From positions 2,754-66,753 of the forward strand of contig CAJQHK010000001.1 in the NCBI GenBank assembly GCA_905478165.1: DNA of 64,000 nt, read 5' to 3'. This DNA is from an uncultured Rickettsiales bacterium (GTDB lineage Bacteria; Pseudomonadota; Alphaproteobacteria; Rickettsiales; UBA1997). Below, in pieces: positions 14,957-34,417 of the stretch (positions are counted from its first letter, which is position 1; every line of letters starts with the position of its first letter). The position numbers were made by a program, and so were the translations under genes. The notes under the pieces are model-generated. The model worked only from the letters and a program-made list of their open reading frames with translations, ran no database searches and was not told the origin of the DNA.

Positions 14957-15982
14957 CTATTCGATTGATGGCAGAACATTTTCTGCAATCTTTCCGAACT
15001 CCATAGCAATTTCTGACGATTTATCCTTATAACAAATAGGAATTCTATCATCATTTGACTGATTAATCTCTTGATTAATGGCGATTTCACCTAAAAAATC
15101 AATTCCACGCTCTATAGCCAATTGTTTTATGCGGTTTTTACCAAAAATATATTTCTTTTGGCCCCTCACCTCTTCCAAGTAAGACATATTTTCTATAATA
15201 CCAGATATTTTAATATTAAGCTTTTCATACATATCTATTGATTTCACTAAATCAATAACAGCAATTTGAGAAGGGGTAGACACCAAAACTACCGAATCAA
15301 TTGAAAATTTTTGCATCATGGTTAAGTGAACGTCACCGGTTCCAGGTGGCAAGTCAACAACCATAAGATCGACACCTTCCCAACGAGTTCCGTTTATCAT
15401 TTGATCTAAAGTTTTAGTAATCATCGCACCCCTCCATATTGCAGCCGATTCTTTTTCAAACAAAGACCCCATTGAAATAATTTTAATACCATAATTTTCT
15501 AAAGGAATTATTTTTCCATCTTTAAAATCTGGCTTTTCATTGAGATTCATAAGGTAAGCAATAGATGGCCCATAAATATCCGCGTCCACTAAGGCAACCT
15601 TAAATCCTATTCTGCTAAAACTAATTGCCAAATTTGTAGCGATCGTTGACTTTCCAACTCCACCCTTAGCAGAAGAGATCGCGATAATCTTTTTTACCCC
15701 AAAAACCTTACCAACTTCTTTTGTTGATTGTAGTTTTTTATCAGAAGTTAAAAAAATTAATATTTTTAAAGGAATTTTATCTTTAATTCCAGAAATTATG
15801 GTTTTCTCCAATTCTTTTGCCGCTTCTTTAGTAAGATCGTGACCTGATATATCAAGAAAAACTGATATATTATCTTTTTTGATTAATATTTTTGGATTAA
15901 AAGCAAATGATTGCAGCTTTTTATCTAAAAAAATTATTTGATTAAATATTGCCAAAACGGCTTTTTCCTTAAAAAATTTCAT
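14957..15982 (-). CDS. Mrp/ApbC (NBP35) iron-sulfur cluster carrier ATPase
   Basis: Deviant Walker A SAKGGVGKST, DADIYGPS and DLPPGTGD. The ORF-track start at 16027 is trimmed to MKFFKEK because the first 15 codons are supplied by the terminus of repeat copy A. Confidence 0.85.
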   Translation of the reverse strand: MKFFKEKAVLAIFNQIIFLDKKLQSFAFNPKILIKKDNISVFLDISGHDLTKEAAKELEKTIISGIKDKIPLKILIFLTSDKKLQSTKEVGKVFGVKKIIAISSAKGGVGKSTIATNLAISFSRIGFKVALVDADIYGPSIAYLMNLNEKPDFKDGKIIPLENYGIKIISMGSLFEKESAAIWRGAMITKTLDQMINGTRWEGVDLMVVDLPPGTGDVHLTMMQKFSIDSVVLVSTPSQIAVIDLVKSIDMYEKLNIKISGIIENMSYLEEVRGQKKYIFGKNRIKQLAIERGIDFLGEIAINQEINQSNDDRIPICYKDKSSEIAMEFGKIAENVLPSIE

Positions 15983-16013
15983 AATTTTGTTAAAAAATAT
16001 TGAAAATACTGCC

Positions 16014-16152
16014 ACACCAATTCCCATTTATAATGCGCAATACAGCAAAATATTTTAAGGTTAAAATTGTCAAAACACAACTACCCTACAACCTTAGAGC
16101 GCAAGGCTTTTTGGTAATTAGAAGTTTAAAAGATAAAGGTGGATTTTGGTAT
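16014..16152 (+). repeat. palindromic TIR-bounded dispersed repeat, copy A
   Basis: Aligns over most of its length with 56637-56807 and, in reverse complement, with 32669-32840, 18241-18412 and 57018-57129. The 31-mer at 16045-16075 is identical to the reverse complement of 32779-32809. Its termini acaccaattccc and ggattttggtat are mutually inverted. Confidence 0.85.
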
Positions 16153-31446: not shown

Positions 31447-32074
31447 AATAAATAAAATTTCTTAATAGTTTAATTCCCGATTCGCCGCTTTTTTCTGGGT
31501 GAAACTGAGTAGCTACGATATTGTCTTTTGCAATGATGGCCACTAGATCTTGGCCATAAGATACCTTAGCAATTACATCATCATATTTTTTTGGCACAAA
31601 ATGATAACTGTGTACAAAATAAAAATGTTCATAATTCTTTATGCCCTCTAATATATAATGGTCTTGGCATATATTTAACTCATTCCAGCCGATATGAGGT
31701 ATTTTTAATTCATCATTATGATTATCAATCTTAATGACCTTACCAGGAATAAACCCTAAGCCTAAATTTTTACCATATTCATGACCAAAATCAGCTAATA
31801 GTTGCATCCCAACACAAATTCCAAGAAAGGGTTTTTTTTTAACTAGAACCTCTTCCCTTAAGATGTCTGTCATTTTTTCAATCTTAGATAATGATCCTAT
31901 GCAATCGGCAAAAGCACCGACTCCAGGCAGGATAATTTTATTAGATTTTTTAAGATCTTCCGGATCAGAAGAGATTTGAAATTTATAATGCTCAGTATCT
32001 ATTAAAGTTAAGGCGTTATAAACAGACCTAAGATTTCCAGATCCGTAATCAATGATTGTAACTATTTTTTTCAT
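31433..32074 (-). CDS. hisH: imidazole glycerol phosphate synthase glutaminase subunit HisH-type amidotransferase
   Basis: 213 aa with IIDYGSGNLRSV, GICVGMQLL and FHPEKSG. It overlaps the lpxB start by 14 nt. Confidence 0.85.
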   Translation of the reverse strand: MKKIVTIIDYGSGNLRSVYNALTLIDTEHYKFQISSDPEDLKKSNKIILPGVGAFADCIGSLSKIEKMTDILREEVLVKKKPFLGICVGMQLLADFGHEYGKNLGLGFIPGKVIKIDNHNDELKIPHIGWNELNICQDHYILEGIKNYEHFYFVHSYHFVPKKYDDVIAKVSYGQDLVAIIAKDNIVATQFHPEKSGESGIKLLRNFIYYEQI

Positions 32075-32092
32075 TGTAGGTGGGAATTGATT

Positions 32093-32821
32093 TTATTCAT
32101 GCCAAAAAGAGCCAAAATATTTATAATTAGTGCCGTAAAACATACTACTTGACATGGCGCCCTTTCCTTCCCCACCATCAGCAGTGCTACTTCTAGTAAA
32201 ATCAAAAACAGAGCTAAAAATGTTATTATCAGCAACAGATTGGTTAAGCCCAAAACCCAAATTTTCATTTTTACCAACAATTGTGTTATCAACACTTCCA
32301 AGACTCCAATCAAAGTAACTAGGGCTTACAATATATTCGTCAGATCCGGCATCATTAATAAATCTTATAATATAGTTAAAGCAAAAACCATAACCCCTAG
32401 AAACTGCAAATTTATATTCAGAATCATCTATTAATCTTGGGTCGTATTTAAAGCCTTTATATCTTGCTCTATAAAATGTATTGCCCCTAGAGCTCAACAC
32501 ACTTTCGCAACCATCTCGAAAACCCTTTTTAAATGTTGGTGTTCCTTCGGGGATTTTAATATTAGTACCCGAAAAAAAGGTTGTGTCAGCACCTCGAAAC
32601 CACTGACATCCAGATATAACAAGGGTTGCCACAAAGATCAAGTGAGCACTTCTAAAAAATCGGAAACAACACCACTTCTTATTTACAATATTGGGTAAGC
32701 AATAGCGTGATCTAGTTTTATCTTTTAAGACTCTAATTGCCAAAAAGCCTCGCACCCCATTAATATAGGATAATCGTTTTTTGACAATTTTAACCTTAAA
32801 ATATTTTGCTATATAGTGCAT
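32093..32821 (-). CDS. hypothetical lipoprotein; annotated 5' end is supplied by repeat copy C, so the true start is uncertain
   Basis: A lipobox LVISGC follows a hydrophobic stretch (AHLIFVATLVISGC). No family was recognised for the mature part. Codons 1 to about 51 lie inside the repeat at 32669-32840. Confidence 0.5.
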   Translation of the reverse strand: MHYIAKYFKVKIVKKRLSYINGVRGFLAIRVLKDKTRSRYCLPNIVNKKWCCFRFFRSAHLIFVATLVISGCQWFRGADTTFFSGTNIKIPEGTPTFKKGFRDGCESVLSSRGNTFYRARYKGFKYDPRLIDDSEYKFAVSRGYGFCFNYIIRFINDAGSDEYIVSPSYFDWSLGSVDNTIVGKNENLGFGLNQSVADNNIFSSVFDFTRSSTADGGEGKGAMSSSMFYGTNYKYFGSFWHE

Positions 32822-32840
32822 TACAAATGGAAAATGGTAT
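32669..32840 (-). repeat. palindromic TIR-bounded dispersed repeat, copy C
   Basis: Its reverse complement aligns with copies A and D. The identical 31-mer lies at 32779-32809. The termini acaccacttctt and aaatggaaaatggtat match the family ends. Confidence 0.85.
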
Positions 32841-33073
32841 AATTTATCGCCGCCATATTCAGGTCAGACTTAATATTGATAAGGTGATAATTTTTTTCAA
32901 ATTATTTTGCAACACCAACTTCCCCCCATAATAAGTCTCTGTGGAACCTAAAATCTCCTTTGATATTGTTCTATTTTTTAACTTTACGATACTCATTTGC
33001 CTTAAGTAAACTGCACTTCCAAATTTAAAAGAATCTCTGTGAATATTTTAATCTCAGACGGCTCCTAATTAAT

Positions 33074-34417
33074 CTAAAGTGGTAATATAATTTTTATACA
33101 TAAACCGCCGTAAGAACTTCTGCCAGCTGATATTTGCCCTCCATGAGAAGTTATGATGTCCTTAGCGATAGATAAGCCAAGACCCGTCCCTATTATATCA
33201 AGATTACGAGAATAGTCAAGCCTATAAAAAGGCCTGAATATTTTGTCTAAATCGCCATCCTCAACGCCTAAGCCATTATCACCTACCTCAATAATTATAT
33301 TATTCCTACTTCGTTTTGCAGAAATATATACATGATCCTTGGTGTATTTAACGGCATTGTCAATTACATTTCTAAGAGCTCTTTTTAAATTATTTGCCTT
33401 GCAAGATATTTTAATTTTTTCGCCAATTCTTCCTCTATAATCAATATTTTTATGAAGAGACTGATAAGAACTTACTATTTCATCAAAATATAATTTAGCA
33501 TTTATTTCACTACTATTCTCTGATTGATTTCCCTTATTAAATTCTAGATATTCATTTATCATCGATTCCATGTCTAATATATCAGACCCCAGATTAGAAA
33601 GTTGGTCATTTTTATCCATTAAAGCTATCTGCAACTTCATTCTTGTAAGTAACGTTCTAAGATCGTGAGAAACTCCTGATAGCATTAAAGTTCTTTGATT
33701 AATTTGACGACTTATCCTCCCTTTCATCTGAATTAAAGATATCCCAAGAGACCTGATTTCACTAGCACCTTTTATTTTAAAATTAACAACATCTACGCCC
33801 ATACCTAATTTTTGTGCGTTCCTTTTTAAAGATCTAATGGATTTTATTTGATTCTTTATAAATAATATTGAGATCAAAGAGGTTATGGTCGAAATTACTA
33901 TGATCCAAGCAATGAACACCCCCCTTCTCGAGGTAATAATTTTTTTCTTAGGTACGTTAAGTTTCAAAACATCATCTCCCATCTGCACTTCTATTGTAAC
34001 TCTGTTTTTATCTTGAGATGGATAAATTATAAATAACTCGATTTCGCCCCTTTTCAAGCTATCTCTTAAATAAGTGAATGAATCTATGATTGGAGATACA
34101 TTAATAAATCCTAAAAAATTTTTAGCTTTATAATTATAATATTTGGGGTGTATTTTTTTATGTCTAATAATTTCCGATGTAATTTCTGATTTTTTAGAAA
34201 AACTAGGAATTAATTCGGCATCCATATCTTTTTGATATATTTGATATATTAAGTATACTTGGCTAGACATTGATTCAGCCATGTGTTTATTAATATTGTT
34301 TATGTAGTTATAATAAAAAATATAAATAATGGTTATTTGAACTATAACTGATGGTATGAGTATTATTAATAAAAAACGATTCAATAATGATTTTGGTATA
34401 AATTTTTTGAGGAACAT
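33074..34417 (-). CDS. sensor histidine kinase (EnvZ/PhoR-like architecture)
   Basis: 447 aa with two TM helices. It has H-box SGVSHDLRT, N-box NVIDNAVKYT, G1 DNGLGV and G2 GTGLGLSIA. Confidence 0.82.
   Translation of the reverse strand: MFLKKFIPKSLLNRFLLIILIPSVIVQITIIYIFYYNYINNINKHMAESMSSQVYLIYQIYQKDMDAELIPSFSKKSEITSEIIRHKKIHPKYYNYKAKNFLGFINVSPIIDSFTYLRDSLKRGEIELFIIYPSQDKNRVTIEVQMGDDVLKLNVPKKKIITSRRGVFIAWIIVISTITSLISILFIKNQIKSIRSLKRNAQKLGMGVDVVNFKIKGASEIRSLGISLIQMKGRISRQINQRTLMLSGVSHDLRTLLTRMKLQIALMDKNDQLSNLGSDILDMESMINEYLEFNKGNQSENSSEINAKLYFDEIVSSYQSLHKNIDYRGRIGEKIKISCKANNLKRALRNVIDNAVKYTKDHVYISAKRSRNNIIIEVGDNGLGVEDGDLDKIFRPFYRLDYSRNLDIIGTGLGLSIAKDIITSHGGQISAGRSSYGGLCIKIILPL

What the first reader, a model, noticed from the sequence alone, without database searches (positions are those of the whole stretch)
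32669..32840. Repeat copy C is fused in frame to a lipoprotein gene and supplies its ATG and first ~50 codons
The only ATG-initiated frame for the lipoprotein ORF 32093..32821 begins inside repeat copy C. Residues MHYIAKYFKVKIVKKRLSYINGVRGFLAIRVLKDKTRSRYCLPNIVNKKWCC are all element-encoded. The signal-peptide core and lipobox (AHLIFVATLVISGC) follow only afterwards. No in-frame ATG lies between the element end (about 32669) and the lipobox. Either the element donates the start codon and a long N-terminal extension, or translation uses a non-ATG start, or the gene was inactivated. Copies A and D carry the same ATG-initiated frame. Copy A reads MRNTAKYFKVKIVKTQLPYNLRAQGFLVIRSLKDKGGFWYYLLLKYL-stop. 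Copy D reads MQYVEKYFRIKIAKKDGPTLIECKAFLQLEA-stop. The terminus of copy A also creates a spurious 15-codon extension (MGIGV...) on mrp. In-frame insertion of palindromic elements into genes is established for Rickettsia RPEs, so this may be an analogous case.
Basis: partly seen in the sequence, partly recalled or inferred. Interest (0 to 1): 0.6.

Follow-up and report, generated by a model that had tools for sequence, protein, structure and literature searches.

The report
Mobile repeat donates lipoprotein start codon
A 170-base selfish DNA repeat landed five codons into a lipoprotein gene of an uncultured marine bacterium, and the gene survived, most likely because the repeat carries its own stop-then-restart signal and open reading frame, which puts 52 extra residues in front of the export signal.

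Summary
Copy C (core 32839-32670, minus strand) belongs to a ~170-nt repeat family with terminal inverted repeats and about 96 loci in this 1.2-Mb genome. It is flanked by a 3-bp duplication (TTA/TTG).

The only ATG-started frame of the lipoprotein ORF (32821-32093) begins at element position ~20. Codons 1-50 are element-encoded.

Removing the element plus one duplication copy in silico restores MAAINYFRFFRSAHLIFVATLVISGC from an ATG at 32856. That is a canonical lipoprotein signal peptide. The same holds in three lineages.

Today that ATG opens an 11-codon uORF. Its TAA overlaps the element ATG (TAATG), and this offsets the +2 frameshift caused by the 173-nt insertion.

The gene is not dead. 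The mature part has dN/dS 0.12, equal to its neighbours, and metatranscriptome contigs cover the junction. The extension evolves neutrally.

The genome hardly uses Shine-Dalgarno sites. ATG 32821 sits in an unstructured window typical of real starts, while the alternative starts do not.

Translation itself is not shown.

The family is a MITE with terminal inverted repeats and a target duplication, and it is otherwise intergenic. It is not an RPE-1-like element that sits inside genes. I class this as a new variant of known MITE-gene fusions, of moderate interest.

The parts
32670..32839 (-). Repeat copy C, a type II MITE-like element. It is a 170-nt core, TACCATTTTCC...AAGTGGTG, with imperfect terminal inverted repeats.
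   Evidence: nhmmer score 125, model positions 1-169 of 170. Alignment with 43 near-full copies. Boundaries and ends. As RNA it folds into one long hairpin, -39.8 kcal/mol, z = -2.3.
32840..32842 (-). Left target-site duplication, TTA.
   Evidence: A 3-bp T-W-A duplication flanks most well-preserved copies, about 10 of the 13 best-scoring ones perfectly. At copy C it is TTA on the left and TTG on the right, in all three lineages.
32667..32669 (-). Right target-site duplication, TTG (one change from TTA).
32093..32821 (-). Present lipoprotein ORF, 242 aa. The ATG at 32821-32819 lies at element position ~20. Codons 1-50 are element-encoded. Then come the n-region FRFFRS, the h-region AHLIFVATLV, the lipobox ISGC (32617-32606, Cys codon 32608-32606), and the mature domain.
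   Evidence: The Cys is invariant in 16 homologues. dN/dS of the mature part is 0.118.
32821..32856 (-). An 11-codon uORF, MAAINYTIFHL*. It starts at the pre-insertion start codon (ATG 32856-32854). Its TAA (32823-32821) overlaps the element ATG, giving TAATG.
   Evidence: Excising the element plus one duplication copy restores ATG32856-MAAINYFRFFRSAHLIFVATLVISGC-QWF... in the window, L001 and L011. The local fold at this ATG is -3.8 kcal/mol, typical of real starts.
32913..32934 (-). Solo 3' terminal-inverted-repeat fragment of an older copy of the same family (TTATTATGGGGGGAAGTTGGTG; in L001 TATTATAGAGGGGAATTGGTA, followed by TTA).
   Evidence: Read from alignment A4 against the family's 3' end consensus. 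Coordinates. This rests on inspection only.
32935..33059 (-). A copy of a second, unrelated repeat family 'X' (~125 nt, ends GTCTGGAATC...GATTCCAGAC).
   Evidence: blastn of the spacer finds at least 10 other copies in the genome at 73-85% identity. Alignment of 13 copies.
33069..33101 (-). Remnant of the ancestral start of the lipoprotein gene, overlapping the kinase 3' end: ATG...MYKNYITTLD*. It is now out of frame and dead-ends.
   Evidence: In L002, L003, P0007 and P0008 the gene starts at this ATG (MCQNYFTH.., MYKNHITN.., MCKNYLTS.., MCKNYTSN..). DNA match to L003 is 21 of 22, with 0 of 500 shuffles as good. Caveat: this stretch is also constrained as kinase coding sequence.
33192..33219 (-). 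Sigma-70-type promoter inside the kinase 3' end: TTGACT, 16 nt, TG-n-TATAAT, 11 of 12 matches. Predicted transcription start is about 33185.
   Evidence: The 36-nt stretch is identical in four lineages apart from one non-synonymous change, while flanking synonymous sites vary. A metatranscriptome contig of depth 65 ends at 33185, with no coverage from 33272 to 33687.
33074..34417 (-). EnvZ/CpxA-like sensor histidine kinase, the upstream neighbour.
   Evidence: Pfam HATPase_c, HisKA and HAMP. NCBIfam EnvZ at 1.4e-58, below its cut-off.

Best explanation
A type II copy of a ~170-nt MITE inserted at a TTA triplet 15 nt downstream of the then-current start codon (ATG 32856) of a lipoprotein gene. 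The family has terminal inverted repeats and a 3-bp T-W-A target duplication. The 173 added bases shift the frame by +2.

The gene stayed functional because this subfamily carries two things:
- the pentamer TAATG near its 5' end;
- downstream of it, the only one of its six frames that is open to the element's end.

I infer the following sequence of events. Ribosomes still load at the intact native start and read 5 native plus 6 element codons. They stop at TAA (32823-32821) and restart on the overlapping ATG (32821). Alternatively they initiate there directly. That frame leaves the element in the native frame.

The product would be a 242-aa pre-lipoprotein. A 52-residue, strongly basic extension precedes the unchanged n-region, h-region and lipobox (FRFFRS-AHLIFVATLV-ISG|C). 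The extension stays cytoplasmic and is removed with the signal peptide by Lgt/LspA processing, so its sequence can drift.

Shown here: the anatomy, the restored empty site, purifying selection on the mature part, transcription, and the start-site context. Inferred: which codon is actually used, the coupling, and export and cleavage.

An older insertion event (repeat X plus a solo terminal repeat) had already separated the gene from its ancestral start inside the kinase gene.
For: Anatomy:
- Element boundaries and the 3-bp duplication.
- In-silico excision restores ATG-MAAINYFRFFRSAHLIFVATLVISGC in three lineages. The uORF ends in TAATG in all three.
- Only forward frame 1 of the type II consensus is open, and it is the frame fused here.

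The gene is alive after the insertion:
- Window versus L001, mature part: dN/dS 0.118 (13 non-synonymous, 24 synonymous changes).
- Kinase 0.121 and hisH 0.115 for comparison.
- The insertion is shared by the window, L001 and L011.
- The strain polymorphism in the mature part is an in-frame 3-nt deletion.

Transcription:
- RNA-run contigs cover 32448-32796, 32779-32929 and 32774-33185.
- A conserved promoter sits upstream, and an RNA contig ends at the predicted transcription start.

Start choice:
- Only 3% of 586 long ORFs have an SD motif, against 7% at random positions.
- Real starts sit in weakly folded windows, mean -3.9 kcal/mol against -7.4 for internal windows.
- ATG32821 scores -2.1, the 76th percentile of real starts.
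- GTG32755, TTG32743, ATT32689 and TTG32641 score -14.1, -12.7, -9.2 and -9.3. These fall in the most structured 1-4% of starts.
- One-base stop/start overlaps are common: 33 among 953 adjacent ORF pairs.

lgt and lspA are present. All other homologues have 17-32-residue lipoprotein signal peptides with the same invariant Cys.
Against: - No protein-level or ribosome-level data exist.
- The extension shows no coding constraint: 15 non-synonymous against 2 synonymous changes.
- Keeping the ATG and the open frame between the window and L001 has probability 0.44 under neutral simulation. Conservation therefore does not argue for translation.
- In a global fold of the leader, the ATG pairs with the element's 3' arm (unpaired probability 0.11).
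- A lipobox Cys at residue 72 lies well outside the usual range for lipoprotein signal peptides (general knowledge; the PROSITE PS51257 rule expects roughly 15-35).
- The intermediate 'ATG 32856' state is reconstructed. It was not observed in any genome: G004 and G002 carry the older arrangement and G001 lacks the locus.
- RNA contigs carry no strand information.
Confidence: 0.6

Rival explanations
1. The gene is functional, but translation starts at a non-ATG or internal codon closer to the signal peptide. Candidates are GTG 32755, ATT 32689 and TTG 32641. Most of the element would then be 5' leader rather than coding sequence.
For: - The extension evolves neutrally, and its open frame and ATG are not significantly conserved.
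- A start at ATT 32689 would give MVNKKWCCFRFFRS...ISGC, with Cys at position 28, which is canonical. ATT is kept in L001 and L011.
- TTG 32641 and the AGAAG 7 nt upstream of it are kept in all three lineages.
- ATT 32689 is unpaired in the global fold, probability 0.89.
Against: - The genome essentially lacks SD-led initiation, so nothing marks a weak non-ATG codon.
- All these candidates lie in local windows folded more strongly than 96-99% of real starts.
- TTG 32743 is TTA in L001.
- TTG 32641 would give an 11-residue signal peptide with no charged n-region. It would leave the perfectly conserved FRFFRS untranslated.
- The TAATG overlap with the intact former start points ribosomes to ATG 32821.
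Confidence: 0.22
2. The gene was knocked out by the insertions and is a young pseudogene. The ATG-started frame would be a mechanical by-product of the element's own ORF.
For: - Both earlier start codons (33101 and 32856) now run into stops.
- The family consensus itself carries the ATG and the open frame, so their presence needs no selection.
- No function is known for the protein: no Pfam, NCBIfam or PDB match.
Against: - The insertion predates the split of three lineages, dS about 0.25. Yet the mature part has dN/dS 0.118, the same as the flanking essential-type genes. It has no stops or frameshifts, and its only indel polymorphism is in frame.
- The locus is represented in five metatranscriptomes.
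Confidence: 0.06
3. An RPE-style internal in-frame insertion: the native start is still used and the element is translated as an internal peptide insert of the precursor.
For: The element has one frame open from end to end, YQFPFIMHYIAK...IIDGNG, as Rickettsia RPEs do.
Against: - The frame from ATG 32856 enters the element in its frame 2 and stops after six element codons.
- The frame from ATG 33101 stops after 10 codons.
- The in-frame stretch upstream of ATG 32821 begins at a TGA and holds no start codon (PEYGGDKLYHFPFV).
- The insertion is 173 nt, not a multiple of three.
Confidence: 0.02
4. Assembly artefact: contigs were wrongly joined at a repeat, so the fusion does not exist in the cell.
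For: Short-read unitigs in several metagenomes break inside the element, around 32774-32808.
Against: - The same join appears in independent assemblies: the window, L004, L001, L011 and G003. They differ by 7-11% within the element, so these are orthologous copies and not a collapsed repeat.
- DNA contigs covering 32050-32808 and 32781-33150 overlap.
- An RNA contig covers 32448-32796 with no mismatch.
Confidence: 0.02

Closest known systems
Rickettsia palindromic elements (RPE-1 and relatives; Ogata et al. 2000, as summarised in PMC10969869)
   Same: A ~150-170-nt palindromic dispersed repeat in a small AT-rich alphaproteobacterial genome. It carries one frame open from end to end, and here that frame is joined in frame to a host gene that stays functional.
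   Different: - RPEs are noted for sitting inside genes and being read through from the host start. Here 0 of 63 near-full copies are inside an ORF.
- This insertion is 173 nt, so it is frame-shifting, and the host start frame terminates in the element.
- The family has clear terminal inverted repeats and a 3-bp target duplication.
- BLAST finds it in none of the 16 other families of the order that were sampled.
IS630/Tc1-mariner-derived bacterial MITEs (for example RUP of Streptococcus pneumoniae, Correia elements of Neisseria)
   Same: Small size, terminal inverted repeats, an AT-rich target duplication, a hairpin-forming transcript, many intergenic copies, and effects on neighbouring gene expression or coding ends.
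   Different: - The duplication is 3 bp (T-W-A), not TA.
- The parent IS was not examined here.
- Start-codon donation with a built-in stop-restart is not a feature I know to be described for these families (my own knowledge; no search was made for it).
Intragenic ERIC and other enterobacterial MITE ORF fusions (Delihas, cited as ref. 48 in PMC10969869)
   Same: MITE-borne ORFs fused in frame to the ends of host genes. The review calls this 'not unusual'.
   Different: Here the fusion replaces the start codon of a secreted lipoprotein and places 52 residues ahead of its signal peptide. Post-insertion purifying selection is demonstrated.
Translational coupling at overlapping stop/start codons (UAAUG and AUGA junctions in bacterial operons)
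   Same: The TAA of the short upstream ORF shares its last A with the ATG of the downstream ORF. Such overlaps are frequent in this genome.
   Different: Here the junction is not between two genes. It lies inside a transposon, and it would splice the two halves of one interrupted gene at the level of translation.
Extended signal peptide regions (ESPR) of autotransporters
   Same: A charged N-terminal extension preceding an otherwise normal Sec signal peptide. This shows that long pre-sequences can be exported (my own knowledge).
   Different: ESPR is a conserved motif of about 25 residues with a proposed function. This extension is transposon-derived, about 52 residues long, and evolves neutrally.

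Membership tests
Rickettsia palindromic elements (RPE) | Many copies are inserted inside protein-coding genes, in frame, and are read through from the host start. | tested here: not met
   0 of 63 near-full copies are contained in an ORF of 60 aa or more. A few clip 18-49 nt of gene ends. At copy C the host start frame stops inside the element.
Rickettsia palindromic elements (RPE) | Palindromic repeat of ~100-150 bp with a conserved encoded peptide. | tested here: met
   Hairpin of -39.8 kcal/mol. One open frame in the type II consensus. MHYIAKYFKVKIVKK... recurs in copies A, C, D and others.
Rickettsia palindromic elements (RPE) | Sequence membership in a described RPE family, and occurrence in the genus Rickettsia. 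| tested here: inconclusive
   BLAST of the consensus hits only the own genus and two other genera of the same family. It hits none of the 16 other families of the order.
MITE of the IS630/Tc1-mariner type | Terminal inverted repeats. | tested here: met
   TACCAATTCCCAC...GTGGGAATTGGTA in the best copies.
MITE of the IS630/Tc1-mariner type | Target-site duplication containing TA. | tested here: met
   TTA or TAA on both sides in about 10 of the 13 best-preserved copies. It is 3 bp rather than the canonical 2 bp.
MITE of the IS630/Tc1-mariner type | Short, non-autonomous, multi-copy. | tested here: met
   ~170 nt, about 96 loci in 1.2 Mb, no transposase-sized ORF.
MITE of the IS630/Tc1-mariner type | A parent insertion sequence with matching ends and a DDE transposase. 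| not tested
   Claimed only by earlier notes e1-2815097 and e1-2164228.
Bacterial lipoprotein precursor (Lgt/LspA pathway) | Lipobox [LVI][ASTVI][GAS]C after a hydrophobic h-region and a positively charged n-region. | tested here: met
   FRFFRS-AHLIFVATLV-ISGC. The Cys is invariant in 16 homologues. lgt and lspA are present.
Bacterial lipoprotein precursor (Lgt/LspA pathway) | The signal peptide lies at the extreme N-terminus, with Cys at roughly residues 15-35. | tested here: not met
   Cys is residue 72 of the ATG-started ORF. It is residue 26 in the reconstructed pre-insertion ORF, and 18-33 in the other homologues.
Bacterial lipoprotein precursor (Lgt/LspA pathway) | Actual lipidation and cleavage. 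| not testable with these tools
   Needs labelling or a globomycin assay.
Translational coupling by stop/start overlap | Overlapping stop and start codons, with the upstream ORF having a competent start. | tested here: met
   TAATG at 32823-32819 in three lineages. The upstream ATG 32856 is the former gene start and sits in an unstructured window, -3.8 kcal/mol.
Translational coupling by stop/start overlap | Downstream translation depends on upstream translation. | not testable with these tools
   Needs reporter mutagenesis.

The most novel reading that the evidence does not exclude
The type II subfamily of this MITE may be built to be tolerated inside coding DNA. Its 5' TAATG plus a single end-to-end open frame exactly cancels the +2 shift of its own 170+3-nt insertion. 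One in six insertions into a gene would then yield a stop-restart 'translational splice' instead of a knockout. In this lipoprotein that device has been in continuous use since before three lineages diverged. It would produce a natural precursor with a 71-residue cleavable leader. Translation of the uORF would also melt the element hairpin that hides the restart codon, and so act as a translational gate.
Probability: 0.15. Interest if true: 0.65.

Novelty: new variant of a known kind. Interest (0 to 1): 0.45.

Why it matters
This is a clean natural case of a gene surviving a transposon hit inside its first codons. The empty site can be reconstructed to the base. The gene is demonstrably still under selection. 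A concrete, testable mechanism is available: stop-restart at a transposon-borne TAATG.

If translation does start at the element ATG, the lipoprotein export pathway tolerates a 52-residue basic extension ahead of the signal peptide. That is well outside the range used by predictors and annotation rules.

It also bears on annotation. In MITE-rich, Shine-Dalgarno-poor genomes, element-borne ATGs create both real N-termini (here, and probably rnhB) and spurious ones (mrp).

The general phenomenon, MITE ORFs fused to host genes, is already known, so the advance is one of mechanism and documentation rather than of kind.

Tried and rejected
- Conservation of the extension as a test of translation is uninformative. 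Neutral simulation gives P = 0.44 for keeping the ATG and open frame. Per-site divergence of the extension (0.11) equals that of the non-coding spacer (0.11-0.14).
- DNA similarity between the present signal-peptide region, or the X-to-C spacer, and the signal-peptide regions of L002 and L003 is not above shuffles. Homology of the h-region is argued only from position and from the N-Y motif.
- Rfam finds nothing in 32500-33300, even at E <= 1. No intrinsic terminator is predicted.
- The metagenome scan for more lineages carrying the insertion yielded only an identical contig (L004), insertion-free relatives, and another element copy (L010). The one extra lineage, L011, came from cluster members.
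- Population contigs at 85% likeness break at the repeat and add no frameshift information for the extension.
- A Shine-Dalgarno argument for TTG 32641 or TTG 32743 was dropped once the genome proved to be SD-poor.
- Function of the lipoprotein: no Pfam, NCBIfam or PDB relatives.
- The 16S 3' end was not found in the assembly, so the anti-SD sequence was assumed to be canonical.

Full report
**Organism and locus**

The window is C1:2754-66753 of a 1.2-Mb, 31% G+C, 31-contig genome. It carries an alphaproteobacterial two-piece tmRNA. Its closest public relatives are MAGs titled 'Rickettsiales bacterium'. The sequence is common in marine metagenomes.

On the minus strand the gene order is as follows:
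- an EnvZ-like histidine kinase, 34417-33074;
- a 252-nt spacer;
- the 242-aa lipoprotein ORF, 32821-32093;
- hisH;
- lpxB.

The ORF begins MHYIAKYFKVK... as quoted, and the lipobox ISGC follows at residues 69-72. A profile built from the five window copies finds the repeat all over the genome. A refined profile gives about 96 loci, 59 of subfamily I and 37 of subfamily II.

Copy C is a subfamily II copy at window 32671-32840 by nhmmer. The family ends are TACCAATTCCCAC...GTGGGAATTGGTA. The best-preserved copies are flanked by identical TTA or TAA triplets.

At copy C the core is 32839-32670 (170 nt). It has TTA on the left and TTG on the right. I did not test that note's claim of an IS630 parent.

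**Orthologues**

Sixteen homologues share an invariant lipobox Cys. Every one outside the window's immediate lineage has a short classical lipoprotein signal peptide.

In two species of the same genus (L002 = G004, L003 = G002), and in P0007 and P0008, the gene starts at an ATG inside the last codons of the kinase gene (MCQNYFTH.., MYKNHITN..). There is no spacer and no repeat.

The window keeps that ATG at 33101, but it now reads MYKNYITTLD-stop. Three lineages share the whole composite insert: the window, L001 (= G003) and L011. The insert consists of:
- a copy of a second repeat family 'X', 33059-32935, with at least 10 other copies;
- a solo 3' terminal repeat of an older copy of the C-type family, 32934-32913;
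- about 70 nt of unknown origin;
- copy C.

**The empty site**

In a script I joined the two flanks of copy C, removing the 170-nt core and one copy of the triplet. This gives ATG GCG GCG ATA AAT TAT TTC CGA..., which translates to MAAINYFRFFRSAHLIFVATLVISGC-QWFRG. The equivalents are MEAVNY... in L001 and MAAVNY... in L011.

That is a textbook lipoprotein precursor with the Cys at residue 26. So immediately before this insertion the gene started at ATG 32856. The element landed between codons 5 and 6. This intermediate state is inferred; no sampled genome has it.

**How the present arrangement can work**

The 173 inserted bases shift the frame by +2. From ATG 32856 the frame now reads MAAINYTIFHL and stops at TAA 32823-32821. 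The last A of that stop is the first base of ATG 32821 (TAATG).

The ATG is therefore two bases out of phase with the uORF. That is exactly the phase of the downstream native codons. Its frame is the only one of the six frames of the subfamily II consensus that is open to the end of the element.

All three lineages keep the uORF, the TAATG and the open frame. One-base stop/start overlaps are common between genes in this genome, 33 among 953 adjacent pairs. Termination-reinitiation is therefore a reasonable expectation, but it is an inference.

**Is the gene alive?**

Yes. The window and L001 both carry the insertion. Comparing them gives:

| Region | Non-synonymous changes | Synonymous changes | dN/dS |
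|---|---|---|---|
| Mature domain | 13 | 24 | 0.118 |
| Kinase | not recorded | not recorded | 0.121 |
| hisH | not recorded | not recorded | 0.115 |
| Signal peptide | not recorded | not recorded | 0.34 |
| Extension (52 codons) | 15 | 2 | about 2 |

The extension value means neutral evolution once the strong transition bias is considered (16 of 17 changes are transitions).

The only indel polymorphism seen in the mature part is a 3-nt in-frame deletion. Contigs from five metatranscriptomic runs lie on the locus. They include 32448-32796 (mature part through most of the element, no mismatch) and 32779-32929 (element ATG and uORF). These contigs carry no strand information.

A strong promoter-like site lies in the kinase 3' end: TTGACT, 16 nt, TG-n-TATAAT, at 33219-33192. 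It is identical across four lineages apart from one non-synonymous change, while neighbouring synonymous sites vary. It uses codons atypical for this AT-rich genome. In run X20 a contig of depth 65 ends at 33185, seven bases after the -10 box. Nothing is laid for the next 400 bases upstream.

**Which start codon?**

Conservation cannot decide. Under neutral simulation the ATG and open frame survive with P = 0.44.

Context does discriminate:
- Only 3% of 586 long ORFs have a GGAG, GAGG or AGGA motif upstream, fewer than at random positions.
- Real starts lie in weakly folded 63-nt windows, mean -3.9 kcal/mol against -7.4 for internal windows.
- ATG 32821 (-2.1) and ATG 32856 (-3.8) look like real starts.
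- GTG 32755 (-14.1), TTG 32743 (-12.7; TTA in L001), ATT 32689 (-9.2) and TTG 32641 (-9.3) fall in the most structured 1-4% of starts.
- TTG 32641 would also give an 11-residue signal peptide with no charged n-region. It would leave the perfectly conserved FRFFRS unused.

Against ATG 32821, in a global fold it pairs with the element's 3' arm. Translation of the uORF, or co-transcriptional initiation, would relieve that.

The extension has a net charge of about +13 in the window and about +10 in L001, counted from the sequences. This fits retention on the cytoplasmic side. lgt and lspA are present.

I put 0.6 on ATG 32821, about 0.2 on a downstream non-ATG start, and about 0.06 on a pseudogene.

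**Comparison with known systems**

None of 63 near-full copies lies inside an ORF. The insertion is not a multiple of three. The host start frame stops in the element.

The family has terminal inverted repeats and a target duplication like an IS630-type MITE. BLAST finds it only in this genus and two other genera of the same family, and in none of the 16 other families of the order that were sampled.

In-frame fusions of MITE ORFs with host genes are described as 'not unusual' in a recent review (PMC10969869).

To my knowledge three things are new here:
- the donated start codon with a frame-correcting stop-restart;
- its position ahead of a lipoprotein signal peptide;
- the direct evidence that the gene remained under selection afterwards.

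**Verdict**

This is a new variant of a known kind, of moderate interest.

Noticed in passing
window 32935-33059 (-); other copies e.g. G000 C17:48521-48646, C21:22964-23056, C21:22405-22497, C2:41324-41416, C29:8847-8978, C10:57638-57732: A second dispersed repeat family 'X' of ~125 nt, with ends GTCTGGAATC...GATTCCAGAC and at least 10 copies. It is unrelated in sequence to the C-type element. The window copy does not fold better than shuffles (z = +0.8).
   Followed up: partly
window 33185-33219 (-): A near-consensus extended -10 promoter inside the kinase coding region. It is identical in four lineages apart from one non-synonymous change, and it uses non-preferred codons. It implies that the lipoprotein-hisH-lpxB string has its own conserved promoter embedded in the upstream gene.
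   Followed up: partly
window 32774-33185: In metatranscriptome X20 the leader contig has depth 65, against 4-14 for the coding region and 0-2 for the kinase. In X25 the ratio is reversed (3.7 against 15). This could be a stable 5' leader fragment, attenuation at the element hairpin, or a sampling effect.
   Followed up: no
L010 1501-2300; G000 C18:3451-4191: Another type II copy sits between an rluD-like gene and rnhB. The only plausible rnhB start (MVVGIVGVDEVGRGPL...) is the ATG inside the element's 3' terminal repeat. This looks like a second case of a start codon donated by this family.
   Followed up: partly
window 14957-16027 (-): The mrp/apbC-like ORF is extended by 15 codons (MGIGVAVFSIFFNKI-MKFF...). 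The terminal repeat of copy A contains ATGGGAATTGG. This is probably an annotation trap, not a real N-terminus.
   Followed up: partly
whole genome G000: Shine-Dalgarno motifs are depleted upstream of genes: 3% of 586 long ORFs against 7% at random positions. Start regions are marked instead by weak RNA structure. The 16S rRNA 3' end was not found in the assembly.
   Followed up: partly
L001 (JBLHPX010000011.1): This 10.4-kb contig is filed in a MAG titled Ulvibacter sp. (a flavobacterium). It is 93% identical in DNA and syntenic to this Rickettsiales-like genome, and the same protein is filed elsewhere under 'Rickettsiales bacterium'. It is probably a mis-binned contig.
   Followed up: no
window 32350-32355: A strain-level in-frame 3-nt deletion with a cluster of nearby substitutions in the mature lipoprotein (IIRFINDAG versus ILRFVT-AG). 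It is seen in several metagenomes and one metatranscriptome. This may be a recombined allele.
   Followed up: no
G000 C19:33285-33470: A type I copy is followed directly by the start of another copy (...ATTAGTA|TAA|TACCAATTCCCACC). This is a tandem or nested insertion sharing one target triplet.
   Followed up: no
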